Shown one piece after another: positions 48,371 to 62,890 of a stretch of 64,000 nt of DNA. The notes below the pieces were generated by a model that was not told the DNA's origin, did no database searches, and saw only the letters and a program-made list of their open reading frames with translations. Location of the stretch: positions 1 to 64,000 of the IMG/VR virus record IMGVR_UViG_3300032330_001692; one strand, written 5' to 3'. The position numbers were made by a program, and so were the translations under genes. The DNA is from a virus. Lineage: Duplodnaviria; Caudoviricetes. Numbering within the stretch: position 1 is the first letter of the stretch; each line of letters begins with the position of its first letter.

Positions 48371-48472
48371 TCCATATTTTAGCACATTAATTGACACTGG
48401 TGCCCCTTTTCTAGAGTGTCAGTAAACGTCGGCAGGGGAAATGTCGAGCAGGTTAGTGTGCTATACTATGGA
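48371..48472 (+). ncRNA. Unidentified structured RNA (possible kissing loop)
   Basis: TAGCACATTAA/TTAGTGTGCTA closing helix; two hairpins with complementary loops CCCC/GGGG; directly after a promoter. Confidence 0.5.
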
Positions 48473-48555
48473 GTTTTATACCGTTAAGGAGACGGTTCCG
48501 GCTGTAACCCGGACGCGCTTGCGCTCTGATGGATCGTTACCATCAAACTCCACCA
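48470..48555 (+). tRNA. tRNA-Tyr(GTA)
   Basis: Cloverleaf with long variable arm, atypical T-loop ATCGTTA, CCA. Confidence 0.85.
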
Positions 48556-48607
48556 CATCAAACAAGGAGTATATTATGTTATTTTAGATAAACTAAAGGA
48601 GCATGAT

Positions 48608-48961
48608 ATGTCTAGAACATACAAAGACAAGCCCTATAAATTCATGAATCCTGAACAGGACTGGGAATATAGGCATACTGGCACTCCACATACCCGCGAG
48701 TATCGTGTATACTCCGAGGGTTGCTGGAAGTGGGTAGAGTACGATAGGGTTTACTGGCTAAAAAAGCCCGGCGTACTAACCAAGAAAAAGAAGCACAAGG
48801 ACACTGAGCATCACTGGATGACTACTCCCAGCTGGTGGACACGTATGTATATGCGACGTCCGCAACGTGTTCGTGAGAATCAACAGCTTCGCAATATCCG
48901 TGATATTGACGAGTTTGACTTTGTGGATACTGGCCGCAAGCCACACATCTACTACTGGTAG
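48608..48961 (+). CDS. Basic hypothetical protein
   Basis: AAGGAG RBS; MSRTYK..P, TPSWW motifs. Confidence 0.65.
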   Translation: MSRTYKDKPYKFMNPEQDWEYRHTGTPHTREYRVYSEGCWKWVEYDRVYWLKKPGVLTKKKKHKDTEHHWMTTPSWWTRMYMRRPQRVRENQQLRNIRDIDEFDFVDTGRKPHIYYW

Positions 48962-49151
48962 GCTATGAAAACAAATAAAAAGAAATACTGGTGGTATGTG
49001 TGGCAAAAGGCCATTGGTGACAAAGCAAGTGTTAGTGCGCAGGTATCAGACCATGTGTCCATTGTACGTACCTTCTTGGTACTAAGCTACCTGTTCACTA
49101 ACTTCATAATCATACTAGGTGTGTGGCATCATTGGTAAACGAAAGGTAAAA

Positions 49152-50010
49152 ATGTCTGTGTGGCGTGTGGCTCCGGCCAAAGAACATCCTGAAGCTGTGC
49201 TGGTTTCTTGGCGAGTATTTGAACTTGAAAACGGTGATCGACACTTTTGTGGCCGCGAAACTCTATATCGCGAAGGCCGAGTCACCAGCCGTGTAGTAAG
49301 CTTTGATCCCAAATCTCGGCAGGGCATCACTCGTTCAAGCCGGTGCTATGAGCTGCAAGGCCCTCCAGGCCACAACGCAGATGCACTGTATGTGTGGGAC
49401 TACTGGTGCCGCGTAAACGGCATTACACAGTGCACAGACGTCACAGATCAGGTGTACGAAGAATTTACCCATTAAATTTTACACTTGCCGGCATGTTGCT
49501 TTTCAGTTATAATAATTCTTTGAAAATACAAACACACCATGAAATTTCGTGAAAAAACGGTTGAGATAGAAGCCATTGAATTTGTTTATACCGGAGGCGG
49601 ACTTCAAGCTTTGCGCGAATTTTGTGGTGATGCCCTGGGTTACGTAAACAAGGCCAGGCACATCAATGCCAAAGCAGAAGCTGAGATTAAAAATGTCTAC
49701 TCAGGCATAACATACGTTGCCGTAGAAGGTGACTGGATCGTCAAAAATGGCTCCGGTCATTTTCACAACTGTGATCCTCAAACATTTTGGAAAACCTATG
49801 AGCCAGTATGATCGTTTTGAGCATGAACAGCAACTCATGCGTTGTTGGCAAATCACTGATGACCTACAAGTGTTGGCAGAAGGTGTTCTAGAAGGCAGCA
49901 TGACCACTGATGATGTGGCAAATGTACTGCAGGGACTGCAACAGCTGTATGCACTAAAGTTTGACTCCCTGTGGAACAGCTTTGAAGCATCAATTCAAAT
50001 CCGCGACTGA
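49152..50010 (+). CDS. Three early hypothetical genes (49152-49475, 49539-49811, ~49798-50010)
   Basis: RBS-preceded ORFs; 49539 has GDWIVK..G.F..C....F.KTYE motif. Confidence 0.6.
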
Positions 50011-50074
50011 GTGTGATGGAAGCACGCTAGGCTCATAACCTAGAGGACCTGTTCGATTCAGGAGTTCGCAACCA
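50002..50074 (+). tRNA. tRNA-Met(CAT), initiator-like
   Basis: CT-CAT-AA loop, C1:A72 mismatch, CCA; irregular acceptor stem. Confidence 0.7.
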
Positions 50075-50080
50075 GTTAAT

Positions 50081-50167
50081 CCGAGTGTAGGCTAGCCTGG
50101 TCAAGTCACTCCGTTTGGGGCGGAGAGCGTAACTGCATCGCAGGTTCGAATCCTGCTACTCGGACCA
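50081..50167 (+). tRNA. tRNA-Pro(TGG) with enlarged variable region
   Basis: Cloverleaf TT-TGG-GG, 14-nt variable region, CCA. Confidence 0.85.
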
Positions 50168-50259
50168 ATTAAAAAAGCAGCATAAGCAGCCTTAGCATAA
50201 CAACACAGTCTATCTGCGCATAGTCTAAGTTCCGCTGTATCTAGGCTGCTTTTTTAATT
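50167..50259 (+). ncRNA. Unidentified helix-closed spacer RNA
   Basis: 15-bp AATTAAAAAAGCAGC/GCTGCTTTTTTAATT. Confidence 0.4.
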
Positions 50260-50267
50260 GTGTTATT

Positions 50268-50341
50268 CTCTCCTAAGTGTTCCGGTAGCACAAGTGACTC
50301 CAAACCACTTGGACGCGGTTCGATTCCGTGAGGAGAGGCCA
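50268..50341 (+). tRNA. tRNA-Trp(CCA)
   Basis: Cloverleaf CT-CCA-AA, CCA end. Confidence 0.85.
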
Positions 50342-50486
50342 ATAATTAAGTACTATCAAGGTATCGTGTGCAGACGTGTACACTACTCGGGCGCAACTGG
50401 CGAGGAAAGCGTCCTGATATAACTGATTAGTCGCTGTGGGATGAAAGCATCAGACCCCTAAATAGATCAGATAGTATTTAATTATT
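50341..50486 (+). ncRNA. Unidentified helix-closed RNA between tRNA-Trp and tRNA-Ala
   Basis: 17-bp AATAATTAAGTACTATC/GATAGTATTTAATTATT enclosing ~110 nt. Confidence 0.55.
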
Positions 50487-50560
50487 GGGCGTGTAGTATA
50501 ATGGGATTACGGCGGCTTTGCAAGCCGTTTATGGGAGTTCGATCCTCCCCATGTCCACCA
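50487..50560 (+). tRNA. tRNA-Ala(TGC)
   Basis: TT-TGC-AA loop, G3:U70 pair, CCA. Confidence 0.88.
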
Positions 50561-50685
50561 CCATTTTCAGTCAGCTTCAGCTCACAAGGCTAAGCTGATT
50601 TTTCTGTCTCTAAATTTTAACAACTGCATTCAGGCTATTAAACAATGATGTAAAAATCTAGTTAGTACCATACAGGGAGCCGATT

Positions 50686-50907
50686 ATGGCCGAAAATGAC
50701 ATCGCACTTGCAACCGCTGTTACCGTAGCCGTCTTGCAAGAAAAAATCTCAGCGTTGGAAGACCATCTCCATCGCAGTGACTCTAAAATCAAAGCCCTAG
50801 AAAAAGATCGAGACAACGCCATCAAGTGGGGTCTCATGATCCTAGGAACCGCGGTAGTTTCCATGGCTTCGTGGATATTCAAGTTGATTACAGTGAAAGC
50901 ACCGTAA
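50686..50907 (+). CDS. Small coiled-coil plus C-terminal TM protein (holin/XhlA-like)
   Basis: GGGAG RBS, heptad region followed by a hydrophobic helix. Confidence 0.5.
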   Translation: MAENDIALATAVTVAVLQEKISALEDHLHRSDSKIKALEKDRDNAIKWGLMILGTAVVSMASWIFKLITVKAP

Positions 50908-51120
50908 TTTTTCTCTTGAACCTCGACCCTAAATCACTTACAATAATCTCTTAGAAATCGAAATCAAGCGTGCCCCACAGGGCACGCTACCCTGAGGTAC
51001 TACTATGAAACCCCGTAATTTTGTAACCAAGCACATGCAGCGCACTGGCGATGGCTCACATCGCAAAACAAACAAACAGCTGCGTCAAAAACAGAAACGC
51101 GAGCTGTTCCAGTAGACGCT

Positions 51121-51194
51121 GGGCTCGTAACTTAAAGGTAAAGTAACTGGCTTTTAACCAGTAAAAGAAGGATCGTTACCTTCCGGGCCTACCA
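51121..51194 (+). tRNA. tRNA-Lys(TTT)
   Basis: CT-TTT-AA loop, atypical T-loop ATCGTTA, CCA. Confidence 0.88.
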
Positions 51195-51199
51195 ATGTA

Positions 51200-51320
51200 T
51201 GTATATGTGAATTTCTCCACCACACCGGCTCACGACCACCGTGGTTCAGCGCAAAAGTTCGTGAGACCGATGCGTGGTATACAAGGGCTTGAAACCCCAA
51301 GTGGGATCTTCACATATGCA
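51200..51320 (+). ncRNA. Unidentified helix-closed RNA between tRNA-Lys and tRNA-Gln
   Basis: TGTATATGTGAA/TTCACATATGCA outer helix, inner CTCACGA/TCGTGAG. Confidence 0.5.
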
Positions 51321-51326
51321 CACAGT

Positions 51327-51400
51327 TGGGGGTTAGTTAAATGGTATAACCACGGATTTTGATTCCGTTGTCAAAGGTTCGATTCCTTTACCCTCTGCCA
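51327..51400 (+). tRNA. tRNA-Gln(TTG)
   Basis: TT-TTG-AT loop, CCA. Confidence 0.88.
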
Positions 51401-51585
51401 GAAATATTCACTTGATTCAACCGGTGTTTTAGTTTATAATCTTTTCCTAACAGGAAAACTATGTATTTCAAAGAACGTGAATCAGATCCACGAGCAAATC
51501 AAGAACACAACAAGCGTGAGCGCGAGCTCAGTGCAGAACGCATGAAGCGGGTTGCTGCACTCCGCAAGTCTAAGCGGTAATCTCC

Positions 51586-51661
51586 ACCCGATTAGCTCAG
51601 CTGGTAGAGCACACGCTTGATAAGCGTTAGGTCGCTGGTTCAAGTCCAGCATCGGGTACCA
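51586..51661 (+). tRNA. tRNA-Ile(GAT)
   Basis: Canonical cloverleaf, CCA. Confidence 0.9.
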
Positions 51662-51742
51662 ATATGGGTGTTTCAAGGTTGCGCAGATGGGCGCAGATAA
51701 AAACTTAATCTAGAGTGAATCGTCTTTTCTCTAGGCCCACCC

Positions 51743-51883
51743 TCCATTAGAGTACACATAGGCGCACACCTTATATAGTGCGGTCGTGCTAGCACACGGC
51801 AACAAACATTGCTAGATGGGGTACTTATAGCCTGAATTTATAGTAGGGCATATCGACCCAAGACCTGTGTGTACTCTAATGGA
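51743..51883 (+). ncRNA. Unidentified helix-closed RNA
   Basis: 20-bp TCCATTAGAGTACACATAGG/CCTGTGTGTACTCTAATGGA. Confidence 0.55.
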
Positions 51884-51982
51884 AGAGTTGCTAATGTTGG
51901 CCTTAGGGAGACCCTTATAAAGTCTTTAAGCCCTCACCAGATAAGTGAGTGTACGTGGGTTCGATTCCCACCTCTTCTACCA
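51881..51982 (+). tRNA. Atypical 102-nt tRNA, anticodon TAT (Ile-AUA?), very long variable arm
   Basis: GGAAGAG/CTCTTCT acceptor, GTGGGTTCGATTCCCAC T-arm, CT-TAT-AA loop, ~28-nt extra arm, CCA. Confidence 0.7.
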
Positions 51983-51990
51983 GATTTAAT

Positions 51991-52074
51991 GCGCGAGTGG
52001 TGTAATGGTAGCCACGCTGGTCTTAGAAGCCAGTGCCGTGAGGCGTGAGAGTTCGAGTCTCTCCTTGCGCACCA
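51991..52074 (+). tRNA. tRNA-Leu(TAG)
   Basis: Class II cloverleaf, CCA. Confidence 0.9.
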
Positions 52075-52084
52075 CCCTAATAAG

Positions 52085-52159
52085 GGCCTATTCGTCTAGT
52101 GGTCAGGACGCCGGGTTTTCATCCCGTAAAGAAGAGTTCGATTCTCTTATAGGCTACCA
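52085..52159 (+). tRNA. tRNA-Glu(TTC)
   Basis: TT-TTC-AT loop, CCA. Confidence 0.88.
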
Positions 52160-52226
52160 ACCAAAATATTGATTTGATTTCAGTGTTAAAACACTCTATA
52201 ATTGTTTTAACAAATCAGGAAATCAG

Positions 52227-52535
52227 TTGAGTAAAAAGTACACAATCACTGCCGTTATCTACGACAAGCGGGGCAACGTGCTTAGTCTAGGAAAGAATAG
52301 TTATCACAAGACTCATCCACTGCAAGCACACTACGCAGCGGTGGCCGGAGAACCGCATAAAATGTTTCTTCACGCTGAAATTGATGCCATTATCAAGTGC
52401 CAGGATTTAACTCGGGCTCACAAACTTGTTGTCTTTCGGTATCGTGAAGACGGTTCTCCGGCCTTGGCCCGGCCGTGCAGAGTGTGTCAGGCTGCTATTC
52501 AGAAAACTCCCATTAAAATCATCGAGCATACTTAA
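52227..52535 (+). CDS. Zinc-dependent cytidine/dCMP-type deaminase
   Basis: HAE...PCRVC zinc motif. Confidence 0.85.
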   Translation: MSKKYTITAVIYDKRGNVLSLGKNSYHKTHPLQAHYAAVAGEPHKMFLHAEIDAIIKCQDLTRAHKLVVFRYREDGSPALARPCRVCQAAIQKTPIKIIEHT

Positions 52536-52771
52536 TGTACGATTCGGCACATCAAACTTACAAAATTGAATTGACCATCTACGACGACTTTCGATTGCCT
52601 CCAGCACACGAGCTGGAACGTTGGATCCGTTACATGGTTGAAAGCGCAGGCAAGATTGGCTGTGACTGTTCGGTGACTGCACAGCCACGAGAAATTAACA
52701 TGCAGGAACGTGTACAGCGCGCTGGACCACGCAAATTTAAACCATACAATTCCGGAGTAGCACAGCGGTAG
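52535..52771 (+). CDS. Hypothetical protein
   Basis: TAATG coupling; 3' end overlaps tRNA-Asn. Confidence 0.45.
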   Translation: MYDSAHQTYKIELTIYDDFRLPPAHELERWIRYMVESAGKIGCDCSVTAQPREINMQERVQRAGPRKFKPYNSGVAQR

Positions 52772-52825
52772 TGCAGTTGACTGTTAATCAATTGGTCGTA
52801 GGTTCGATCCCTGCCTCCGGAGCCA
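52751..52825 (+). tRNA. tRNA-Asn(GTT)
   Basis: Canonical cloverleaf, CCA. Confidence 0.92.
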
Positions 52826-52831
52826 CGTAAC

Positions 52832-52906
52832 GCGTCCCTAGTATAGTGGAAAATATCCAAAGCTACGAACTTTGAGACGGGAGTTCGATTCTCTCGGGAC
52901 GTACCA
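52832..52906 (+). tRNA. tRNA-Arg(ACG)
   Basis: CT-ACG-AA loop, CCA. Confidence 0.9.
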
Positions 52907-52920
52907 CACAGAAAGCAACT

Positions 52921-53136
52921 ATGAGTTTTGATGCCTGGAGTCTAAACTGTCCCCGCTGCGGGCCAGCTCATAAATTGGTTCCTGACTCTACAGCATGTGC
53001 TGAGATTGCCGGCGACTGTTACCAGTGGTGCTGGTATGAGTGCGCAGTTTGCAAGTTTGAAACTGAAAGTGAACAAGCCATAAACGGCGATGCCCAAGTT
53101 TGGGAACTGCTTTATAAAAAATACCTGGTAGAATAG
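52921..53136 (+). CDS. Small zinc-ribbon protein
   Basis: CPRC...CAVC. Confidence 0.55.
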   Translation: MSFDAWSLNCPRCGPAHKLVPDSTACAEIAGDCYQWCWYECAVCKFETESEQAINGDAQVWELLYKKYLVE

Positions 53137-53201
53137 CACAGCGGTAGTGCACGGCTCTCATACGGCTGGGGTCGTAGGTTCGAATCCTACTTTTACCACC
53201 A
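53127..53201 (+). tRNA. tRNA(CAT), elongator Met or Ile2
   Basis: CT-CAT-AC loop, CCA. Confidence 0.85.
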
Positions 53202-53213
53202 CACATACTAATC

Positions 53214-53513
53214 ATGCGAAACACACTAATCATCAACGGTTGCACTCTGGAGCGTACTTGCTATGCTTGTCCTGAGCAGTACGATGTTTTCTTTCAGGAC
53301 TTTCAGATCGGTTACCTGCGTTTGCGTCACGGTAGATTTACCGCTGATTATCCAGACTACGGAGGTACTACAGCATATCATGGTTACCCCAAAGGTGACG
53401 GCATTTTTGAAGACGACGAGCGTTTCTTCTTTTTGCGTGAAGCGGTAGACTCCTTAATTCAAACGCACAACACACAGCTCATAGAGCGCATGGATGCTCC
53501 TGCGTACGATTGA
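53214..53513 (+). CDS. Phage hypothetical protein (ACPEQYD family)
   Basis: TC.ACPEQYDV...GYLRLRHG, GDG.F..DER. Confidence 0.7.
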   Translation: MRNTLIINGCTLERTCYACPEQYDVFFQDFQIGYLRLRHGRFTADYPDYGGTTAYHGYPKGDGIFEDDERFFFLREAVDSLIQTHNTQLIERMDAPAYD

Positions 53514-53628
53514 AATTTTTATCTTGAATTCTTCGCAAATTCCTGTATAATAATGTAATGGGTTGAGAGATCGATCCAGAGCTTCACTAGCGTAATTAGT
53601 GGTAATGACTGTGATACTTAATCAGTCA

Positions 53629-53792
53629 ATTAAGTTAAGCGTCTGCTGTAGCGAGGCGATCAGTTACTTCATACTATAGAGAAAGGTTAATCCTTGTGGT
53701 TAACCAAAGCGGTAAAATAATTCGGCGTGCCGCGATAGACAAAACCCGATAAAACCTGAGAACACACATTCTCAGCGGACGCTTAACTTAAT
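53629..53792 (+). ncRNA. Y RNA-like (Yrl) RNA upstream of Ro60
   Basis: 20-bp closing helix, CAGTTACTTC motif, internal hairpins. Confidence 0.65.
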
Positions 53793-53817
53793 CTTTTTAA
53801 CTACGAAAGAAACCAAA

Positions 53818-55140
53818 ATGTCTAGCCTAAACAAGCGCGTGTATGCTCCTCAAGCCCGTGCTGTAAACCATGCTGGTACTGCTGTGCGCGCTATCACTCC
53901 AGAAAAGCAACTGGTGCGCATGACCCTAGCTAATATGCTTTGGGAAAACCAATTCTACGTCAACGGAGAAAAATCCGCTGACGTGATCGCCAAGTTGGTG
54001 CAACAGTGCGATGCCCAGTTTGTTTCAAACTTGGCCATCATGGCACGTACGCAATTCAAACTGCGTCACGTTCCACTACTGTTGACCCGAGAACTGGCAC
54101 GCACTGGCCGCCTTGCGGCACATGTGCTCAACGCTGTAATCCAGCGTCCGGACGAAATGTCCGAGTTCCTGTCAATCTACTGGCGGGACGGCAAGACCCC
54201 TATCGGCAATCAAGTCAAGCGGGGTCTTGCAACTGCTTTTGCAAAGTTTTCGGAATACGCACTTGCAAAGTGGGATAAGAACAGCAGCGCAGTCCGGATG
54301 CGTGATGTAATGTTCTTGGTGCATCCGAAGCCTGAGAGCCCTGCTCAGGCTGCACTGTTTAAGCGCGTTGCCGATAACGCGCTCAAAACCCCAGATACCT
54401 GGGAATCGGAACTCTCAGCTGGAGCCGATAAACGTGAAACGTTTACTCGACTGATGCAAGAGAAGAAGCTGGGAGCTTTGGCATTTTTGCGTAATCTGCG
54501 CAACATGACCCAAAGCGGCGTTCAGGACTCTCAGATTCGTGAGTACGCACAGACTCTAGATGTCACAAAGGTTCTGCCTTTCCGTTACATCGCAGCAGCC
54601 CGTATTGTTCCCGAATATGAGGATATGCTGGAACAGCTGATGTTTCGCAGCCTAGAGTCACACGAAAAGCTGCCTGGTGTAACCAAGTTGTATGTGGATG
54701 TATCAGGCTCCATGTTTGGTACTAAGATTTCTCAGAAGTCAGACTTGGAGCGTTTCGACGCTGCTGCTGCTTTAGCCGTGCTGTGCAGAGAAATCTGCGA
54801 AACGGTTGAAATCTACAGTTTCTCGGATCGTGCTGTGCGTGTACCACCTCGCCGTGGTTTTGCCCTAGTTGAAGCAATTCGCCAGTCACAAGCACACAAC
54901 GGTACCAACTTGGGGCGTTCGCTAAACTCCACTGGATCGCCTTGCGATCGAGTGATTGTGTTTACCGATGAACAGTCACACGACCGTCCGGGTAAGCCCG
55001 GGTTCGGTGCTAAGGGATACATTGTTAACGTAGCAGCCTATGAAAATGGTGTAAATCACGACCACTGGCTGACTATTTCAGGATTCTCTGAAGCCATCGT
55101 TGACTATATTCAAGCCGTTGAAAAGGACGTAAGTCCTTAA
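53818..55140 (+). CDS. rsr: Ro60/TROVE domain RNA-binding protein with vWA domain
   Basis: LRHVP, F.KFSEY.LAKW, LRNLRN, LPFRY, MIDAS DVSGSM, VFTDEQ, I.GFSE. Confidence 0.92.
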   Translation: MSSLNKRVYAPQARAVNHAGTAVRAITPEKQLVRMTLANMLWENQFYVNGEKSADVIAKLVQQCDAQFVSNLAIMARTQFKLRHVPLLLTRELARTGRLAAHVLNAVIQRPDEMSEFLSIYWRDGKTPIGNQVKRGLATAFAKFSEYALAKWDKNSSAVRMRDVMFLVHPKPESPAQAALFKRVADNALKTPDTWESELSAGADKRETFTRLMQEKKLGALAFLRNLRNMTQSGVQDSQIREYAQTLDVTKVLPFRYIAAARIVPEYEDMLEQLMFRSLESHEKLPGVTKLYVDVSGSMFGTKISQKSDLERFDAAAALAVLCREICETVEIYSFSDRAVRVPPRRGFALVEAIRQSQAHNGTNLGRSLNSTGSPCDRVIVFTDEQSHDRPGKPGFGAKGYIVNVAAYENGVNHDHWLTISGFSEAIVDYIQAVEKDVSP

Positions 55141-55221: not shown

Positions 55222-55425
55222 CTGCCGCGGTGGCAGTGTCCATCCACCAAGTAGTGCGAAAACTACTAAAAAATCCACGCTAGGAACCGCAAGCAGCCGG
55301 TCAGAGCAAGAGAGTGGTCAGGACGAATATGTACAAGAGTAGCATGTAGAGTTGCGTACACAACTCGAGGGCTTGAATTCTCTTGCCGGCGACACCGGCT
55401 ATGTCCTCTAAACTGCAAGGTTTAG
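55222..55425 (+). ncRNA. Unidentified multi-helix RNA downstream of Ro60
   Basis: Nested AGCCGGT/ACCGGCT, GCAAGAGA/TCTCTTGC and GAGTTG/CAACTC helices plus flanking hairpins; no ORF. Confidence 0.45.
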
Positions 55426-55499
55426 AAAAGTGTATGTTGTCGGATGCGGTTACTTCTTTAGGCGAAAAAACACCGCATCAATTTGTTACTACACTTTTC
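55425..55499 (+). ncRNA. Minimal Yrl-like RNA
   Basis: GAAAAGTGTA/TACACTTTTC, internal loop, GATGCGGT/ACCGCATC, loop starting TACTTC. Confidence 0.7.
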
Positions 55500-55500
55500 C

Positions 55501-55608
55501 AAGCCTTGACGCTGTTATTGGTTACTTCATAGGTTCGATTCCTATATGCGGTTACATACTGCGTATAGCTGCAATGGCGCAGCACACCAATACAAATTTT
55601 TCAGGCTT
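55501..55608 (+). ncRNA. yrlA: YrlA-like RNA with circularly permuted tRNA-like domain
   Basis: Stem, GGTTACTTC, T-arm ATAGGTTCGATTCCTAT, closed acceptor-like hairpin, D-arm TAGCTGCAATGGCGCAGC. Confidence 0.8.
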
Positions 55609-55616
55609 CCATTTAC

Positions 55617-55718
55617 GTCTTAGTGTTTTACACAGTTACTTCTCTTACCATAAAATTCTGGCCTTACAGCTTGAATCAAGAAATGCCGCATAGGCGCTCT
55701 GTGTTTTTTGTTCTAGAC
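55617..55718 (+). ncRNA. Yrl-like RNA
   Basis: GTCT(T)AG/CTAGAC and ACACAG/CTGTGT stems, CAGTTACTTC motif. Confidence 0.6.
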
Positions 55719-56089: not shown

Positions 56090-56096
56090 GCCACAT

Positions 56097-56193: not shown

Positions 56194-56216
56194 AAAGGCA
56201 TCGTTTATATATCAAA

Positions 56217-56308
56217 GGAAAGTTGGCAGAGTCCGGCTTATTGCACTAGTCTTGAAAACTAGCGGATCAGCGATGGTCCCGATGGGTTCGAATCCCTCAC
56301 TTTCCGCC
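56217..56308 (+). tRNA. tRNA-Ser(TGA)
   Basis: Class II cloverleaf, G73, CCA. Confidence 0.9.
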
Positions 56309-56324
56309 ACTAAAAGGAGTTAAC

Positions 56325-56803
56325 ATGCCTTGCATGAAATGTTCAAATGGCAAATACAAGTATGGTGAACATGGTAAATGTGTGTTTGATACCCTAACAG
56401 CCTGCAAACGTGCTGCTGCTGCTGCTATTCACGTGCAAGACAAGTCTATAGACAGCGTAGAAGTCGCTACAAAAGATAGTTTTACAAAACTCTCCGGAAG
56501 TGTAACCCAACTGGGCCCCTCAAACTTGGCTTAAAAAGCGTTAACATGAGCTATCACCTGTACAAAGAATTCCTGGAAAAGCACTACGAAAGCTTAGGTG
56601 AAAACAAAACCTTTGTGGTAGCTTGTTTCAGTGCACACAGCGGAGAGCTACAACAAGCTGTAGTGTACGCAAAAACAGAGCTACAGGCATTTTGCACATT
56701 TCTGAAAACAGACTATGCAAATACAACTGCATTACAAGAAAGTTTAGCCGGTGCAGATATGTGGATTTCTGCACTAGAAATCAATAACACGTTGACCGAG
56801 TGA
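56325..56803 (+). CDS. Two hypothetical genes (56325-56534, 56546-56803)
   Basis: AGGAG RBS; MPC.KC.NGK.K.G..G.C motif. Confidence 0.6.
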
Positions 56804-56859
56804 CTAGGTGGTTGGCTGCAACCCTTCCCAGACTGGTTGAAATCCAGTACGTGTTTCCA
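56786..56859 (+). tRNA. tRNA-Cys(GCA), weak anticodon stem
   Basis: CT-GCA-AC loop, U73, CCA; two T:T mismatches. Confidence 0.7.
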
Positions 56860-57113
56860 GAAAGACTACTATGAAAACAAACTTGTTTAATGCTCGTCAT
56901 CGTGGGCGGCACGGCCCAGGCGGCTGGCGCTGTCACTGTTGTGGCCCTGCTCCCAGTCACCGAGCAAGTTTTGCACGCTTGCACAAGCGTTTCATTTATC
57001 GTGTTTTGGATCGCCTGGAACACGAATGATTGTACTGTTTCCAGAACCCGTACCACACTACTTGGTGTGGTATTTCGACAATCACGGTTTCGTGCATTGT
57101 TTTCAACTTTAAT

Positions 57114-57189
57114 GCGTGTGTAGCTCAATTGGTAGAGCAGCTCGTTGCCAACGAGCAGGTTGCAGGTTCGAGACCTGTCGCCCGCACCA
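57114..57189 (+). tRNA. tRNA-Gly(GCC)
   Basis: TT-GCC-AA loop, CCA. Confidence 0.88.
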
Positions 57190-57192
57190 TCT

Positions 57193-57269
57193 GCGTGGTT
57201 AGTGTTCAACGGCTAGCATCTTTGGTTTCCACCCAAAAGGAAAGGGTTCGAATCCCTTACCCCGCACCA
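57193..57269 (+). tRNA. tRNA-Gly(TCC)
   Basis: TT-TCC-AC loop, CCA. Confidence 0.85.
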
Positions 57270-57277
57270 CTTACGAG

Positions 57278-57352
57278 AGTTCCTTAGCTCAGAGGCAGAG
57301 CAACGCTTTTACACGGCGAAGGTCGGGATCTCGGAATTCCCAGGAACTACCA
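57278..57352 (+). tRNA. tRNA-Val(TAC)
   Basis: TT-TAC-AC loop, atypical T-loop, CCA. Confidence 0.82.
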
Positions 57353-57353
57353 T

Positions 57354-57971
57354 ATGTTAACTGATGACAACTCTGCTTGGCTGACCTTTCCACAACACAG
57401 GCTGTGGTTCAACAAACTGTGGCTCAGCGAAACTCTGGGCTACGATTGCGGGCCAGGCGGCGTTCCAGTAACCAAACCGGGGGTTTATGTTGTGCGGCCT
57501 GTGTACAACTTGCGCGGCATGGGCTTAGGCGCACGGCTAAAGTACCTGACTCCACACGACACTCACACTGTGCCTCCAGGCTATTTTTGGTGTGAGCAGT
57601 TTTTGGGTACACAACACAGCATTGACTACACATGGGATAAGGGTTGGCAGCAAACGCAAGCCTTTGAGGGCTGCAACGAGCCAGATCAGCTATACCGATT
57701 TACCAGCTGGACTCGTTCCAGTCACCAAATCGAGTTGCCGGCTGCATTTGATGTGTTGCAAGACTGTGAACACATCAACGTTGAGTTTGTTGGCGGCAAG
57801 ATCATAGAAGTACACTTGCGTGTATCTCCTGATCCTCAAGACTACCATCACTTGATACCTGTGTGGAGCGACGAACTTTTGTTGATGCCACCAGGCTACA
57901 CTTGGATCGCCAGTGAGGACAGTGCAGACGGCTTGCTGCCCAGCACACGACTAGGATTTTATGTAAAATGA
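57354..57971 (+). CDS. ATP-grasp-like phage protein
   Basis: YVVRP.YNL.GMG.GA, W.E.F.G...SID, INVEF.G.KIIEVHLR. Confidence 0.55.
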   Translation: MLTDDNSAWLTFPQHRLWFNKLWLSETLGYDCGPGGVPVTKPGVYVVRPVYNLRGMGLGARLKYLTPHDTHTVPPGYFWCEQFLGTQHSIDYTWDKGWQQTQAFEGCNEPDQLYRFTSWTRSSHQIELPAAFDVLQDCEHINVEFVGGKIIEVHLRVSPDPQDYHHLIPVWSDELLLMPPGYTWIASEDSADGLLPSTRLGFYVK

Positions 57972-58632
57972 GCATCAAATTCACCAGAATTAAAAAGTGC
58001 CTGGAACTAGATGACAAACTCGCCTTTGGTGCTCACTCCGGTAAAAGCATCAGCTACATGCTGGAGTTTGAGCCGGAGTACTTGTTTTGGGCAACAAAAC
58101 AACCAAACTTGATTTTTCTGTGCCACACAGCAGCCATAAGACTTGAAGAAAAAGCCACCCGCGCCAAACAGGAAAAAGAAAAGCACAAAGCAAAAGCCTA
58201 CTATTACGCAGACACTGACCAAGACTCTTGGTTTGATGACGTGCCGTTTTAAAGGCTTGAAACTCAACTCAATTTCGGATATAATTTATCTTTAGATAAA
58301 TAGGAAATCAAATGCGCAAAATGATTGTTCACCTGAGTGTTGGCTTTGCAGGCATGGATGCCTATGAAGCACTTCTAGTTGAAGACGATGCCACTGAAGA
58401 CGAGATTGCACAAGAAGCCTGGCACATGGCCTTAGATCACGCTGAACGTTACGGCTACTATCCCACAGACGATTACAGCGAAGACGGCGAAGACGAAGAT
58501 GATGGCGGCTGGGACCGGGATCATTACTCTCACAACATCGAAGGCTGTGCTGAAGACTACGATCCTGATCGTCACGACATGAAGCGTGCAGGCGGCGGCA
58601 GTTTCGAACTAGACTTTGCAGGCATGATGTAA
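57968..58632 (+). CDS. Two hypothetical genes (57968-58252; acidic 58312-58632)
   Basis: L.FG.H.GK.I......P.YL.W motif; RBS and promoter support. Confidence 0.6.
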
Positions 58633-58639
58633 TTGTAGT

Positions 58640-58715
58640 CCAACTTTAGCTGATGTGGTCATAGCGCTGGTTTGAAGCTCCAGTGAACTTGGTTCGATTC
58701 CAAGAGGTTGGGCCA
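58640..58715 (+). tRNA. tRNA-Phe(GAA)
   Basis: TT-GAA-GC loop, GGTTCGATTCC, CCA. Confidence 0.8.
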
Positions 58716-58821
58716 TAAGTTTAGTATACGGTATAGCTCAGTTGAATAGAGCGAGTGATAAAATACTAGTTAGCACGTAGCGCGTCGGGTAAGAGCCGAC
58801 TACCGTTTACTAAACTTATGG
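58713..58821 (+). ncRNA. tRNA-like RNA with extended closed acceptor helix, no CCA
   Basis: 14-bp outer helix plus ACGGTA/TACCGT, D-arm TAGCTCAGTTGAATAGAGC, T-like arm GTCGG/CCGAC. Confidence 0.6.
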
Positions 58822-58894
58822 TGCGTTCGTATAGAGGTTATTACTGCGGATTGTCTATCCGCTTACGCGAGTTCGATTCTCGCACGCATCGCCA
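58820..58894 (+). tRNA. tRNA-Asp(GTC)
   Basis: TT-GTC-TA loop, G73, CCA. Confidence 0.9.
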
Positions 58895-58963
58895 AAATTT
58901 TGATCTTGAAGTGGAATCAAAATCTGTTTATAATTGAATCTTACAAACTGAAAAATCAACAAA

Positions 58964-59374
58964 ATGTCAGCACAACACTACGTTAATGCCATGCTTCCCT
59001 TTCAACATACAGCAATGTGGCCTTTTGCAGCAATGAGTGCAATTGCTCAGGACATTCAGCAAGAATGGGCCACGGCCGATGCATTGGACATCGGTGCTCT
59101 GGCTCAAGCAGAAAACATTCGCATTTGTCACAGTTTCGAGCCTGATGTTCCAGGCGGATTTACCCTTGCTTACCGCAAAGCCAATGAGTTCAATAACTGT
59201 CGCATGGTAGAAGTTGCTGTTGCCTACTGCTCACCTCACGATGTGTTCAGCAAGAAAGTAGGTGCTCGGCGTGCACTAGACAACTTCCTGGACGGTGCAA
59301 CAGTGCTGGTACCTGCACGCACTGAAGGCGACCACAGCATTGTGTGGAACCTGCGCAGGATGTTTACCATTTAA
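58964..59374 (+). CDS. Hypothetical protein
   Basis: A.CSP.D.FSKK.G...AL motif. Confidence 0.6.
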   Translation: MSAQHYVNAMLPFQHTAMWPFAAMSAIAQDIQQEWATADALDIGALAQAENIRICHSFEPDVPGGFTLAYRKANEFNNCRMVEVAVAYCSPHDVFSKKVGARRALDNFLDGATVLVPARTEGDHSIVWNLRRMFTI

Positions 59375-59379
59375 TCACC

Positions 59380-59464
59380 GCCCCGATGGTGGAATAGGTA
59401 GTCACAGGAGACTTAAAATCTCCCGCTTTCGGGTGTGCCGGTTCGAGTCCGGCTCGGGGTACCA
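59380..59464 (+). tRNA. tRNA-Leu(TAA)
   Basis: Class II cloverleaf, CCA. Confidence 0.92.
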
Positions 59465-59490
59465 ACTAATTTAACTCAATCTAACCTAAA

Positions 59491-59922
59491 ATGAATCGCC
59501 TATTTACTGCTGTGACCCTAGCCGCTGCACTAACCTTGGCCGCCTGCGGCCCAGATCGTGCTCCACAAGACATTGTGGACACCAACATGACCATTTCGCG
59601 TTTGAATGCTCAAAAGAACGCAAACAGCTACTTTCCTCAAGCCTGGCCAGAAGGCACTGTACACCCTGTGTGGAATGCAAAGCCTACTCGTATTTTAATG
59701 CAGTCAGACTCCAGCATTACCCCACAATGCCGTTACGGTGACGGCTGGGCCAGTGGCGATCTACAATTTGACAACGGCAAGTCAATCAAGATCAAGTGCC
59801 AAACCAATGGTGTTGGCAAAGGCATCAACGGCTGCATGCAAGAAGTGGAATTCCAAACCAAGTCGTACAAAGACGAAGACGGCAAGTGTGCCAATCTCAA
59901 CAAGCTGGAGAAGTTCCAGTGA
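59491..59922 (+). CDS. Lipoprotein
   Basis: Signal peptide with LAAC lipobox; additional Cys residues. Confidence 0.75.
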   Translation: MNRLFTAVTLAAALTLAACGPDRAPQDIVDTNMTISRLNAQKNANSYFPQAWPEGTVHPVWNAKPTRILMQSDSSITPQCRYGDGWASGDLQFDNGKSIKIKCQTNGVGKGINGCMQEVEFQTKSYKDEDGKCANLNKLEKFQ

Positions 59923-60024
59923 TGGGTGATTTAGCAGCAGCTCTTGTATTCTTATTCGGTATTCTAGTGGGAACAGGCCTGGGCTGGTTTGCACGCTACA
60001 TCCGCAGCAAGTTCCACTAACAGT

Positions 60025-60098
60025 GGTGAGGATAGTGTAATGGGAGCACCGTTGTCTGTGAAACAACTAGACTGAGATCGAAACTCAACCTCACACCA
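60025..60098 (+). tRNA. tRNA-His(GTG)
   Basis: CT-GTG-AA loop, atypical T-arm, CCA; followed by a terminator at 60103-60125. Confidence 0.75.
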
Positions 60099-60198
60099 CA
60101 CAAGCCACCTCAGGGTGGCTTTTTGTTTTGAAAATTTTAACTTGAACCCGCGGCCTCTTTAGGCTATAATAGATCTTTCACCCACAACAACCACAACA

Positions 60199-60516
60199 AT
60201 GAACGAAACAACCTATCAATTTTACTTTGGCCCTGTTACACCTGAAAATTCAGAAGACCTTGAAAATTACTTTCAAGACAAAAACGGAAACAGTTTTTAC
60301 TACAAGATTGTGGTAGAAGAAGACATGTTTTACATCTACGATACTTGCAGCCGCATGATTCCAATTGACCGTGAGTTTGTGCAGAGCTTTGGCACCGCAA
60401 TGTTTGGTGTAGAGGGTGTGTACAGTGCAGCCAGCGAAGCCGAACAGCTTTTCAACAAGCGTATTCGTGAAGTCGAGGCGCTGGTAGACTACTGGAACAC
60501 CGAGGACGGTGAATGA
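60199..60516 (+). CDS. Hypothetical protein
   Basis: Own promoter; coupled to thyX. Confidence 0.6.
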   Translation: MNETTYQFYFGPVTPENSEDLENYFQDKNGNSFYYKIVVEEDMFYIYDTCSRMIPIDREFVQSFGTAMFGVEGVYSAASEAEQLFNKRIREVEALVDYWNTEDGE

Positions 60517-61169
60517 GCACAGTTGTTTTAGTAGGTGTGACTCAACCACGGTTGCCAGGCGTTGAATCTGTGGAAGACTTGGTGGCGTATGCTGCCAGAG
60601 TCTCAAATCCAAGCAATCAAATGAATTCCGAAACAGCTCCAAAGCTGCTCCGTTACCTGATGAAGAATCAACACTGGAGTCCGTTTGAGATGGTTTCCCT
60701 AACCATGGAAATCAACACAACCCGAGACATTGCACGTCAAATCTTGCGTCACCGCAGTTTCGCATTTCAGGAGTTTTCTCAGCGGTATGCCAGTGCTGAA
60801 TCGCTGGGCTTTGAAACTCGTGAGGCACGTATGCAAGATTCAAAAAACCGCCAAGCCAGCTTGGAGACTACGGATCATGAGCTGCAGGACATGTGGCAGG
60901 AAAAGCAGCTTGAATTGTTGCGCAAAACTCGCGAAACATATACTTGGGCGCTCACAAACGGCATTGCAAAAGAACAAGCACGTGCTGTACTGCCTGAAGG
61001 CAACACTCAAAGCCGGCTGTACATGGCGGGTACTCTGCGCAGCTGGCTTCACTATTGTTTGCTGCGTACTGAGCTGGGAACACAAAAAGAGCATCGTGTG
61101 GTAGCAGAACAGTGTTTTGAGATCATCAAGCTGGAGTTTCCCAGTATTGCAGAACTGTTGGCAGCATGA
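60513..61169 (+). CDS. thyX: Flavin-dependent thymidylate synthase
   Basis: HWSPFE, RHR.F.FQE.SQRY, E.AR.VLP. Confidence 0.95.
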   Translation: MSTVVLVGVTQPRLPGVESVEDLVAYAARVSNPSNQMNSETAPKLLRYLMKNQHWSPFEMVSLTMEINTTRDIARQILRHRSFAFQEFSQRYASAESLGFETREARMQDSKNRQASLETTDHELQDMWQEKQLELLRKTRETYTWALTNGIAKEQARAVLPEGNTQSRLYMAGTLRSWLHYCLLRTELGTQKEHRVVAEQCFEIIKLEFPSIAELLAA

Positions 61170-62396
61170 AATTCACCAAAAGCAGTTACAATCCACTGGC
61201 AGAGATACTGGAACTGTTTCCTACATACGCTCCTATGTTTGTGACTACTTTTGGCTTTGAGCAATTCAACAAATTGCTTCGGCAAGGAGGCGTTCACTGC
61301 CACTCCCAATCAGAAATGCTCCAATGTTTGGAAGTTTTAGAGTCACTGGGCGTATTAGAAGTAGAACAAGTTACACATAGTGGCAGCAACTACCTTAAAA
61401 TAGGAAATAAATTAAATGGCAAAGACTCGCAGCAAAACAGCTGAAAATAACGCTCAAGTCTACAAGAGCTCACGTCGCTGGGAAACCAATCGCAAGCGCA
61501 GACTTGCTCGCGCACTCAAACGCAATCCAGAAAACACGCAAATTGAAACAGCCATGAAAAACATGGTTTATCGGCGCAAAACTCCCACAAATCGCGTGTG
61601 GTCACATTCCATGCGACGTCAAGCTGAACTGTTTCAACGATTTGTAGGCCGAGTGTATTCAGACATGTTTTCTAGCAATGAAAAGCTGAGCGGGCCTGCA
61701 CTCACCAGACCAGGCACAGCACAAAAACAAAAACCTTTTGATCAAAGCCGTATGTTCTCCCTAGGCACGCGTGCTCACAACGGTGCAGGTGTAGCAGTAT
61801 GGAGTTGATTGGGTGGTATGGGGTGTTTGCAGTTACCACCTGCATAGTTGCAGGCTTTGAACTATTCTGGCCTGTGCTTCGAAGTCTGCGCATAACACAT
61901 CCAGAGTTGCTGATTGTAGAGAATGTATGGCTCAGCATGCTGGTATTCCTGACCATGGCCTTAGTCTTGGCTCCACTAACCATTTTGCCTTGCGTTTGGC
62001 CACCCAGCGGTGAACGATTTCGCAAAAAGCTGTGGGAATCACTCTTAAAAGAGTGAAATTTTGCAGTTGCAGAGTGTGGGTGTTTCGTTTATAATATTTA
62101 CTTACTCGGAGATCATTCAAATGAAGTTCGCAGCGTTTAAATATACTGACACCAAAGGCAAAATCTCTCAGCGTAAACTGCTGGTGCTGGATCAGCCCTC
62201 AAACAAACTCACTGGCATCGACGTCACGGAACTGGAACCAGTTCAAGCACAGCAACTGGCTCGTGAGTACGATCGACTGCTGGATGCATTCCGCCAGTCA
62301 GTGCTGGAATTGTACACCGACTTTGATGTTGAGCACAACTACCGTCAGTTCTTGCAAGCCAAGATTGAAAGCCTGGAAGTCGTTCAGGCTTATTGA
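61166..62396 (+). CDS. Four hypothetical genes (61166-61444, basic 61416-61808, membrane 61799-62056, 62121-62396)
   Basis: Coupled ORFs. Confidence 0.55.
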
Positions 62397-62466
62397 AAAA
62401 CTAGGGTCAGCACGGTGGGACGTGCAGGTAGACAATACTGCATACAAGGTTCGAATCCAAACTCTA

Positions 62467-62770
62467 GGCACGATGGTTGTAATTCCCCTGAAACGAATGT
62501 GAGCAAGACGCGGGTTCGACTCCCGCCAGGTCCACCAGAAGTACTTTTGTCCATGGAGTTGGGAACGGATAGATAAACCGTGAAAGTATTTCTGATGGGC
62601 CTGCCCAGGTTTCGATTGCGCAAGCTAGTGGATGGAGCAACTCGGTAGGCGATGACCGTAAATCAAGCAAAACACAATAAATGCAAACGATAGCATTTTT
62701 GCTGTAGCGGCCTAAAAAACTTGCACAGCTGAGGTTTTGGCCGGTTCCTTATCAAAGAATACCGGCCCTT
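62467..62770 (+). ncRNA. ssrA: Circularly permuted (two-piece) tmRNA
   Basis: 3' piece ...GACGCGGGTTCGACTCCCGCCAGGTCCACCA (ends 62537) precedes an intervening hairpin and the 5' piece GGGCCTG (62597). Tag ANDSIFAVAA* at 62683-62715. Outer ends approximate. Confidence 0.9.
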
Positions 62771-62890
62771 TAGAATAACGCTAATGTGAAGGGACTCCGT
62801 GCACGGTGAGCCTGGATCTGAGTCAGCGAGTTGATAGTTGGAGTGGACTGACCCACAAAGAGTAACTATCGAATTGGCGTTATTCTAAAG
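62768..62890 (+). ncRNA. Unidentified helix-closed RNA between tmRNA and tRNA-Thr
   Basis: 18-bp CTTTAGAATAACGCTAAT/ATTGGCGTTATTCTAAAG. Confidence 0.55.

What the first reader, a model, noticed from the sequence alone, without database searches (positions are those of the whole stretch)
48371..62890. Set of unidentified ncRNA candidates closed by 11-20 bp helices and punctuated by tRNAs
Seen: at least seven spacers (48371-48472, 50167-50259, 50341-50486, 51200-51320, 51743-51883, 58713-58821, 62768-62890) have unrelated interiors but the same design. Each has a long, near-perfect terminal helix with G:U wobbles on the + strand, and in most the ends abut or overlap the upstream CCA and/or the downstream tRNA's first base. 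Inference: tRNA processing (RNase P and 3' trimming) releases them as stable, exonuclease-resistant RNAs, giving a cassette library of phage RNA effectors or decoys and possibly extra Ro60 ligands.
Basis: partly seen in the sequence, partly recalled or inferred. Interest (0 to 1): 0.8.

Follow-up and report, generated by a model that had tools for sequence, protein, structure and literature searches.

The report
Stem-clamped small RNAs between phage tRNAs
Seven small RNA genes sit between the tRNA genes of an uncultured T5-like phage, each closed by a long RNA stem around a different insert; they resemble the unexplained "stable RNAs" of phage T5, are swapped like cassettes between related phages, and do not depend on the phage's Ro60 protein.

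Summary
All seven spacers fold with a long terminal helix. Six helices of at least 15 bp lie in the 16-kb tRNA array, against 0.05 expected, and they run from an upstream CCA to the first bases of the next tRNA.

The helices are selected as + strand RNA. Mismatches inside them are G:U 34 times and A:C 7 times, and orthologues keep pairing through compensatory changes.

In 22 related loci I found 131 such elements. Helix length peaks at 19-20 bp, many share a CCAUAUUUWAGYA arm, and the inserts fall into 91 unrelated groups. Near-identical genomes hold different elements in the same slot, so they are exchanged as cassettes.

The closest known things are phage T5's annotated "stable RNAs with unknown functions". 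With its flanks, T5 RNAIII has the same CCA-to-tRNA 20-bp helix. T4 RNAC and RNAD are a looser match.

The Ro60-ligand idea is not supported. Sister phages without the Ro60 module keep the cassettes, and the GUUACUUC motif of the Ro60-flanking Y-like RNAs is absent from all seven.

Release by tRNA processing is inferred by analogy, and the function is unknown. This scan has noted the same cassette family before on other phage genomes.

The parts
48371..48472 (+). S1: stem-clamped cassette between a promoter-like site and tRNA-Tyr, with a 6+13 bp helix and arms CCAUAUUUUAGCACAUUAAUU / GGUUAGUGUGCUAUACUAUGG
   Evidence: Fold z -2.9. Its arms match the family consensus shared by elements in L005, L006, L007, L011 and L012. 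The slot holds other elements in L082.
50166..50260 (+). S2: cassette from the CCA of tRNA-Pro to 8 nt before tRNA-Trp, with a 16-bp perfect helix
   Evidence: It is 99% identical in L082.
50339..50488 (+). S3: cassette from the CCA of tRNA-Trp to G1G2 of tRNA-Ala, with a 19-bp helix and a conserved 3' domain of about 70 nt
   Evidence: Orthologues in L082 and L008 show 3 compensatory pairs in the helix, none broken, and a nearly invariant 3' domain.
51196..51324 (+). S4: cassette filling the tRNA-Lys/tRNA-Gln gap, with a 12-bp helix (16 bp with one A.C mismatch)
   Evidence: In L082 the same slot holds an unrelated 84-nt element with a 19-bp helix.
51743..51883 (+). S5: cassette with a 20-bp helix and a multi-hairpin interior, abutting a tRNA-like element
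   Evidence: Fold z -7.0. It is 85% identical in L082, with two compensatory pairs in hairpin 1.
51881..51985 (+). tRNA-like cloverleaf with a long variable arm and anticodon loop CUUAUAA, not called by ARAGORN
   Evidence: Fold. Sub-threshold Rfam tmRNA hit of 21.6 bits. ARAGORN calls a 92-nt tRNA-Ile(tat) in relative L100.
58712..58822 (+). S6: cassette from the CCA of tRNA-Phe to G1G2 of tRNA-Asp, with a 15+6 bp helix and a cloverleaf-shaped interior that has a D-arm-like hairpin
   Evidence: The L082 orthologue keeps the outer stem with two G:U transitions, but its interior is cut to 40 nt.
62768..62890 (+). S7: cassette between the permuted tmRNA and tRNA-Thr, with an 18-bp helix
   Evidence: In L082 the flanks are 100% identical, but only the outer 6 bp (CUUUAG/CUAAAG) are shared and the rest is a different 79-nt element.
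53629..53792 (+). Context, a different class: Y-RNA-like element upstream of Ro60, with a 20-bp covarying helix and conserved UAGCGA...CAGUUACUUC
53818..55140 (+). Context: Ro60/TROVE + vWA gene
   Evidence: PF05731 at E 9.6e-13.
55425..55718 (+). Context: three further GUUACUUC-bearing RNA units downstream of Ro60
62418..62778 (+). Context: permuted two-piece tmRNA whose end borders S7
   Evidence: RF01850 131 bits and RF04321 131.7 bits.

Best explanation
The seven spacers are small non-coding RNA genes built as 'stem-clamped cassettes' inside the early tRNA operons of an uncultured T5-like phage. Each is transcribed on the + strand together with its neighbouring tRNAs. A helix of about 15-21 bp, typically 19-20 bp in the family, joins its two ends. 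The helix often starts on the CCA of the upstream tRNA and ends in the first bases of the downstream tRNA. Inferred steps: RNase P cleavage of the downstream tRNA and 3'-end maturation of the upstream tRNA free the cassette, possibly after a first cut by host RNase III. Its paired, nearly blunt ends should then protect it from exonucleases and from 5'-end-dependent RNase E, so it accumulates as a stable RNA, as reported for T5 RNAIII and RNAIV. The helix is the common 'handle' and the interior is a variable cargo. Whole cassettes are exchanged between phages and between slots, probably by recombination at the shared helix base and tRNA ends. The cargo's function is unknown. Some cargoes are conserved structured RNAs, so at least those are probably trans-acting RNAs of host take-over or phage-host conflict. 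They work independently of the phage Ro60.
For: Real and non-random: 6 helices of at least 15 bp against 0.05 in shuffles, with z from -2.9 to -7.0. RNA-level selection on the tRNA strand: from strand-neutral Watson-Crick seeds, mismatches inside helices are G:U 34 and A:C 7, p 2.5e-5. Covariation: in the S3 orthologues 3 of the 19 helix pairs changed on both sides and none is broken. A related cassette family has 31 pairs all paired, 14 of them with double changes against 4.3 in shuffles, 0 of 500 shuffles as high, and 0-2 in slid controls. Family: 131 distinct elements in 22 loci, helix mode 19-20 bp, 53 abutting a tRNA, and 52 starting CCAU, 22 of these without an upstream tRNA. Cassette exchange: in the S1, S4 and S7 slots L082 differs from the window despite 90-100% identical flanks. 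L097 and L100 have identical tRNA-Lys and tRNA-Ser flanks but different cassettes, while the L097 cassette matches L011's although their flanking tRNAs have diverged. Precedent: the T5 record annotates 8 'stable RNA with unknown functions' in its tRNA region. With its flanks, T5 RNAIII forms a 20-bp helix from the upstream GCCA into the first 6 nt of tRNA-His. Functional cargo: the 3' domain of S3 is nearly invariant against L008, and the tRNA-Asp-linked family has conserved loops. Independence from Ro60.
Against: There are no expression or end-mapping data for this phage, so stability and processing are inferred from T5 annotation and general RNase knowledge. With the helix removed, the interiors are no more stable than shuffles (mean z -0.69 against -0.56 for controls, p 0.81). 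The S6 interior loses about 40 nt in L082, and 71 of 91 interior clusters are singletons, so many cargoes may be unconstrained. I found no sequence homology to the T5 RNAs. Many tRNAs in the array are joined by gaps of only 3-23 nt without a helix, so the helix is not needed for tRNA processing, which leaves its purpose open. The conserved arm sequence has no identified reader.
Confidence: 0.6

Rival explanations
1. The helices are only RNase III processing stalks, or punctuation, for the polycistronic tRNA transcripts. The enclosed sequence is a passenger loop with no function and is degraded after cleavage.
For: Helix length peaks at 19-20 bp, about two turns of A-form RNA and the size class of RNase III substrates, and the helices are AU-rich and near-perfect. 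Interiors are thermodynamically unremarkable, mostly unrelated, and can shrink. The phage encodes no RNase III of its own, so a host enzyme would have to act.
Against: Many adjacent tRNAs in the same array need no helix. T5 RNAIII is annotated as a stable RNA that keeps 12 bp of its helix up to the tRNA boundary rather than ending in mid-helix. S3 and the tRNA-Asp-linked family have conserved interior loops and covarying interior hairpins. Loops of 40-220 nt are needlessly long for a cleavage site.
Confidence: 0.2
2. The seven RNAs are additional Y-RNA-like ligands of the phage Ro60, which binds the conserved stem while the variable interior tethers different partners.
For: A Ro60/TROVE gene lies in the middle of the array. 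A conserved stem with a variable interior is the general Y RNA design, and phage Ro60 proteins bind locally encoded Y-like RNAs (PMC4201824, PMC12135203).
Against: L097 (100 kb, 95% complete, no Ro60 or TROVE match, tRNA-Met and tRNA-Trp adjacent where the module would sit) and L100 keep 5-9 cassettes, several homologous to those of Ro60-bearing L011. GUUACUUC occurs in 21 helix-closed elements, all flanking Ro60, and in none of S1-S7 or L097. No significant GNCGAA-type motif is present, since GCGAR is common by chance. No Rfam match was found at E up to 5. T5 has analogous RNAs, and none of the 98 phage records matching Ro60 was reported as T5.
Confidence: 0.07
3. These are DNA-level elements, such as miniature inverted-repeat transposable elements or recombination hot spots, whose inverted repeats matter as DNA. 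Any RNA fold is incidental.
For: Terminal inverted repeats have a loose shared consensus, the elements are small and non-coding, and they are replaced as units between near-identical genomes and found in different slots.
Against: Mismatches are strongly strand-asymmetric, G:U 34 against A:C 7 on the tRNA strand. All elements share the tRNA orientation. No target-site duplication was seen in the flanks. There are no near-identical multi-copy bursts, with 71 of 91 interior clusters singletons. The ends coincide with tRNA processing sites.
Confidence: 0.05
4. They are decayed or remodelled tRNA genes, pseudo-tRNAs with an over-extended acceptor stem and no function of their own.
For: The S6 interior is cloverleaf-shaped with a D-arm-like hairpin. 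T5 annotates RNA1, RNA2 and RNA3 as tRNA-like. The T-loop word GGTTCGA occurs in 5 interior clusters.
Against: The Rfam tRNA model does not hit any of the seven at E up to 5. The interiors are very diverse. Decay would not maintain 15-25 bp helices by compensatory change.
Confidence: 0.05

Closest known systems
Phage T5 small stable RNAs of the tRNA region (RNAIII, RNAIV, RNAI, RNA2H, RNA1-3, RNAX; record NC_005859, annotated 'stable RNA with unknown functions')
   Same: They sit among the tRNA genes of a T5-type genome on the tRNA strand, and their 5' and 3' ends pair in a terminal helix. With its flanks, RNAIII forms a 20-bp helix from the upstream CCA into the first bases of tRNA-His, the same junction design as S2, S3 and S6. 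T5 also has an unannotated 14-bp-closed element between a promoter and tRNA-Tyr, like S1. Their function is unknown.
   Different: No sequence homology was detected. Here the helices are longer and near-perfect, many share an arm consensus, and the elements are far more numerous and diverse, with documented cassette turnover. This phage clade also carries a Ro60 module, a gene that no T5 record was reported to match.
Phage T4 RNAC and RNAD (species 1 and 2 RNAs of the T4 tRNA region)
   Same: They are small RNAs transcribed from a phage tRNA cluster whose biological roles remain unknown (PMC3014915, PMC9697503).
   Different: They come from a different phage family. I did not compare sequence or fold here.
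RNase III processing stalks (leader-trailer helices around 16S/23S rRNA; phage T7 early-RNA sites)
   Same: A long helix formed by the sequences flanking an RNA that is to be excised from a polycistronic transcript, about 20 bp (established knowledge).
   Different: Cleavage is untested here. The T5 analogue appears to keep its helix. The helix here carries a shared sequence and bridges tRNA ends.
Bacterial and phage Y RNAs (YrlA type) with Ro60/Rsr
   Same: A terminal stem closes a variable module, and they are encoded near a Ro60 gene (PMC4201824, PMC12135203).
   Different: S1-S7 lack the local Ro60-linked motif and persist without Ro60. In this window the Y-like RNAs are the separate GUUACUUC units at 53629-53792 and 55425-55718.
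PeSL mobile regulatory cassettes of T4-type phages
   Same: Short conserved repeated modules that mediate modular shuffling between closely related phage genomes (PMC2839356).
   Different: PeSLs are promoter plus terminator units flanking ORFs. Here the repeats are the two arms of one RNA helix around an RNA cargo.

Membership tests
T5-type stable RNAs of the tRNA region | Encoded inside a phage tRNA gene array, on the same strand as the tRNAs | tested here: met
   24 + strand tRNAs lie at 47191-62968 with the elements between them. There are + strand promoter-like sites with perfect TATAAT and one clear terminator. TerL is closest to T5-like phages, at 48% identity.
T5-type stable RNAs of the tRNA region | Ends paired in a terminal helix that reaches the neighbouring tRNA or CCA boundaries | tested here: met
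   for the window. for T5 RNAIII, RNAIV and RNA2H.
T5-type stable RNAs of the tRNA region | Accumulates as a discrete stable RNA in infected cells | not testable with these tools
   The phage is uncultured and no RNA data exist.
T5-type stable RNAs of the tRNA region | Sequence homology to the T5 RNAs | tested here: not met
   blastn of 8 T5 RNAs against the window and 21 related loci gave only one 18-nt T-arm-like hit.
Y RNA / YrlA (Ro60 ligands) | Co-occurrence with a Ro60 gene across genomes | tested here: not met
   Ro60-less L097 and L100 keep the cassettes.
Y RNA / YrlA (Ro60 ligands) | Ro60-binding motif: GNCGAAN0-1G in bacteria (PMC4201824), or the local GUUACUUC/UAGCGA core of the Ro60-flanking RNAs | tested here: not met
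   GTTACTTC occurs only at 53663, 55449, 55521 and 55635 in the array and only in Ro60-flanking elements elsewhere. GCGAR is not enriched.
Y RNA / YrlA (Ro60 ligands) | Match to a catalogued Y RNA model | tested here: not met
   No Rfam match for any spacer at E up to 5.
RNase III processing stalk | Double-stranded helix of about two turns formed by the flanks of the excised RNA | tested here: met
   The helix-length mode is 19-20 bp over 131 elements.
RNase III processing stalk | Cleavage by RNase III within the helix | not testable with these tools
   No RNase III gene is present in the 93.8-kb record, so a host enzyme would be needed.
MITE-like inverted-repeat DNA element | Strand-neutral inverted repeats, target-site duplication and near-identical multiple copies | tested here: not met
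   G:U 34 against A:C 7. No duplication is visible in the flanks. 71 of 91 interior clusters are singletons.
tRNA (RF00005) | Match to the tRNA covariance model | tested here: not met
   None of S1-S7 is hit at E up to 5.

The most novel reading that the evidence does not exclude
The tRNA arrays of a clade of T5-like phages, and per earlier scan notes other lake phages, host an exchangeable library of stem-clamped RNA cassettes. A conserved helix 'handle' serves as processing signal, stability clamp and recombination handle at once. The cargoes number more than 90 sequence families in 22 loci and are trans-acting RNAs under diversifying selection in phage-host conflict, for example decoys or sponges for host nucleases or defence sensors. 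This would make them an RNA counterpart of accessory-gene cassettes, and it would explain the T5 stable RNAs and perhaps T4 RNAC and RNAD.
Probability: 0.3. Interest if true: 0.8.

Novelty: new variant of a known kind. Interest (0 to 1): 0.6.

Why it matters
Small stable RNAs in phage tRNA clusters have been annotated or reported for T4 (RNAC, RNAD) and T5 (RNAI, RNAIII, RNAIV and others), and the sources I read still list their function as unknown. Here the same design appears as a large natural series: 131 elements with a common helix handle, unrelated cargoes, and cassette swaps between near-identical genomes.

That gives the question a comparative handle. It shows which parts are constrained: the helix, on the RNA strand, and some cargoes. 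It shows that the elements move as units. It also separates them from the Ro60/Y-RNA module next door. Phage tRNA arrays are now known to counter tRNA-cleaving defence systems (PMC11464382, PMC11555353), so non-tRNA residents of the same arrays are natural candidates for related roles.

Tried and rejected
- **Rfam:** searches at gathering threshold and at E up to 5 matched none of the spacers.
- **Cultured phages:** blastn of the array against 50,697 phage records hit only tRNAs.
- **First relatives:** the spacers had no similarity in loci with 47-68% Ro60 identity. Closer relatives had to be fetched.
- **Shared Ro60-type motif:** GCGAR and AGCGARNNRAT are at or below chance frequency, so I rejected it.
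- **Interior stability:** with the helix removed, the interiors fold no better than controls. The thermodynamic signal lies in the helix.
- **14-mer scans:** searches for one arm in viral and bacterial collections were dominated by chance. Only 2 of 113 viral and 0 of 121 bacterial matches have a partner arm. They say nothing reliable about spread or about absence from bacteria.
- **Phage enzymes:** no RNase III or RtcB gene is present in the 93.8-kb record.
- **Small ORFs in the array:** Pfam gave nothing informative and no homing endonuclease.
- **T5 RNAs:** no sequence homology to this clade.
- **Literature:** full-text searches found no description of such cassettes, but the old T5 papers are not in the library.

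Full report
**Setting**

The window is the first 64 kb of a 93.8-kb IMG/VR virus record, 89% complete by CheckV. Its large terminase is closest to T5-like phages of Vibrio, Salmonella and Escherichia, at 48% identity, and portal, head and tail genes lie upstream.

From 47191 to 62968 the + strand carries 24 tRNA genes by ARAGORN, two more by Rfam, and a permuted tmRNA. Small ORFs are interleaved with them, among them a Dps-like protein, a deaminase-like protein, ThyX and ClpP. A Ro60/TROVE gene lies at 53818-55140. Promoter-like sites with a perfect TATAAT recur on the + strand, so the region is a mosaic of short early transcription units.

- All seven spacers fold with their ends paired, with z-scores from -2.9 to -7.0.
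- A scan of my own for uninterrupted helices (G:U allowed, loop of at least 30-40 nt) found six of at least 15 bp in the 16.2-kb array. Shuffles gave 0.05, with a maximum of 1 in 40.
- S1 and S4 have shorter, interrupted helices.
- The scan also found an eighth element, 53629-53792, directly upstream of Ro60.
The outermost C-G pairs are often made by the CC of the upstream CCA and by G1G2 of the downstream tRNA.
- No spacer matches any Rfam family, even at E up to 5.

**It is RNA on the tRNA strand**

I started from strand-neutral Watson-Crick seeds and extended them through isolated mismatches. The mismatches inside 77 helices of the clade are G:U 34 times and A:C 7 times, p 2.5e-5. DNA-level repeats would give equal numbers.

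Orthologues keep pairing through compensatory change:
- In S3 (window, L082, L008), 3 of the 19 helix pairs changed on both sides and none is broken.
- S5 has two compensatory pairs in its first hairpin.
- A cassette family next to tRNA-Asp in six relatives has 31 pairs, all paired in every sequence. Fourteen changed on both sides, against 4.3 in shuffles (0 of 500 as high) and 0-2 when the partners are slid.

**It is a large family with a common handle and unrelated cargoes**

Ro60-based searches gave 79 viral and 8 metagenome loci. Long-helix elements recur in the close clade, at 3-10 per locus, and in one distant lineage. Other Ro60 phages with 24-29 tRNAs have almost none.

Across 22 loci I counted 131 distinct elements:
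- Helix length is peaked: 12, 12, 18, 18, 25, 22, 8, 6 and 8 elements for 15 to 23 bp, plus 2 at 25 bp.
- Median element length is 103 nt.
- 53 abut a tRNA on at least one side.
- 52 begin CCAU, with consensus CCAUAUUUWAGYAYAYU, and 22 of these have no upstream tRNA, so the CCA-like start belongs to the element.

In the S1-like group the two arms are conserved across phages and slots, while the interior cannot be aligned and ranges from about 25 to 90 nt. The 129 interiors fall into 91 BLAST clusters, 71 of them singletons. The only enriched word is GTTACTTCA, which belongs to a different class described below. With the helix removed, the interiors are no more stable than controls.

Some cargoes are clearly constrained. 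The 3' 70 nt of S3 are nearly invariant against L008, whose Ro60 is only 63% identical. The tRNA-Asp-linked family keeps two single-stranded motifs and covarying hairpins.

**Cassettes are exchanged as units**

L082 (Ro60 85% identical, flanks 90-96% identical in DNA) was compared slot by slot with the window:

| Slot | L082 compared with the window |
|---|---|
| S2 | kept, 99% identical |
| S3 | kept, 98% identical |
| S5 | kept, 85% identical |
| S1 | different helix-closed elements |
| S4 | different helix-closed element |
| S6 | same outer stem, interior cut by about 40 nt |
| S7 | different helix-closed element |

At S7 the flanks are 100% identical. Only the outer 6 bp of the helix are shared, and the rest is a different 79-nt element with its own 16-bp helix. 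This also places the working end of the tmRNA at or before 62773.

L097 and L100 have identical tRNA-Lys and tRNA-Ser genes but different cassettes between them. The L097 cassette matches that of L011, although their flanking tRNAs have diverged far more. One family lies upstream of tRNA-Asp in some phages and downstream of it in others.

The likeliest cause is recombination at the shared helix base and tRNA ends. This is an inference. PeSL-mediated shuffling in T4-type phages is an analogy (PMC2839356).

**Ro60 is not involved**

Every helix-closed element that contains GUUACUUC, 21 in all, directly flanks a Ro60 gene. In the window these are 53629-53792 and three units at 55425-55718. Their helices covary around a conserved UAGCGA...CAGUUACUUC core. 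These are the Y-RNA-like partners, and an earlier scan note gave me the motif.

S1-S7 lack the motif. L097 lies in a 100-kb record that is 95% complete and has no match to Ro60 or to the TROVE model. Its tRNA-Met and tRNA-Trp are 5 nt apart, exactly where relatives carry 'element-Ro60-element'. It still has nine long-helix cassettes, several homologous to those of L011. L100 shows the same pattern.

**Closest known**

The T5 record annotates eight 'stable RNA with unknown functions' in its tRNA region.
- These RNAs fold with terminal helices.
- With its flanks, RNAIII forms a perfect 20-bp helix that begins on the GCCA end of RNAI and ends in the first 6 nt of tRNA-His.
- RNAIV has 13+8 bp.
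- An unannotated 14-bp-closed element sits between promoter P14a and tRNA-Tyr, as S1 does here.
- There is no detectable sequence homology to the window's clade.

T4 RNAC and RNAD, also from a tRNA region, are still of unknown role (PMC3014915, PMC9697503).

**Mechanism: what is shown and what is inferred**

Shown: strand, helix, covariation, junction geometry, cassette turnover, and independence from Ro60.

Inferred from T5 annotation and general knowledge of bacterial RNases: co-transcription with the tRNAs; release by RNase P at the 3' side and by tRNA 3'-end maturation at the 5' side, perhaps after a host RNase III cut; and stability due to paired ends.

Pure punctuation is less likely. 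Many neighbouring tRNAs are only 3-23 nt apart without any helix, and some cargoes are conserved. The function of the cargoes is unknown.

**Earlier notes of this scan**

The scan has reported the same kind of cassette on several other phage genomes. I treat those notes as leads, not as evidence. My T5 comparison and my Ro60 test were run here.

Noticed in passing
window 51881-51985: A tRNA-shaped element not called by ARAGORN. It has a 7-bp acceptor stem, a T arm with GGUUCGAUUCC, a long variable arm, anticodon loop CUUAUAA (UAU) and an ACCA end. ARAGORN calls a 92-nt tRNA-Ile(tat) in relative L100 at 6856-6947.
   Followed up: partly
window 53629-53792 and 55425-55718: RNAs flanking Ro60 share GUUACUUC. 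The unit at 55501-55608 also has T-loop-like and D-arm-like hairpins. In relatives L097 and L100 the whole module (RNA, Ro60, RNA) is missing and tRNA-Met and tRNA-Trp are adjacent, so Ro60 and its RNAs behave as one insertable module.
   Followed up: partly
window 55138-55432: A non-coding stretch of about 295 nt between Ro60 and the downstream Y-like units. It folds better than shuffles (z -2.95), is partly conserved in L082, and lacks GUUACUUC.
   Followed up: no
L081 (phage T5 record 35433-35527, - strand): An unannotated 95-nt element closed by a 14-bp helix between promoter P14a and tRNA-Tyr. Its interior contains GCGAGUUACUUU, which resembles the UAGCGA...GUUACUUC core of the Ro60-linked RNAs, although no T5 record was reported among the phage matches to Ro60.
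   Followed up: no
L005 1948-2076, L006 6598-6725, L007 5084-5173: Three related cassettes keep an A.C mismatch at the same helix position (ACCAUAUAAAAA...). A conserved mismatch may be a recognition feature.
   Followed up: no
L071 6203-6793 and 8639-9101: A distant Ro60 phage (Ro60 39% identical, 156-kb contig) carries tandem, abutting arrays of four and three helix-closed elements. Their stems are GC-richer and unrelated, and the arrays lie near its tmRNA and Ro60.
   Followed up: no
window 52343-52463: A perfect 13-bp inverted repeat (GGCCGGAGAACCG / CGGTTCTCCGGCC) 95 nt apart inside the deaminase-like ORF 52227-52535.
   Followed up: no
window 50003-50070 and 57278-57349: Two further tRNA matches found by Rfam only (37.9 and 43.6 bits) and missed by ARAGORN.
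   Followed up: no
window 62418-62778 and 62984-63571: A permuted two-piece tmRNA (tag ANDSIFAVAA) lies about 200 nt upstream of a ClpP-like protease gene. Relatives carry tmRNAs with similar tags, bordered by cassettes on one or both sides.
   Followed up: partly
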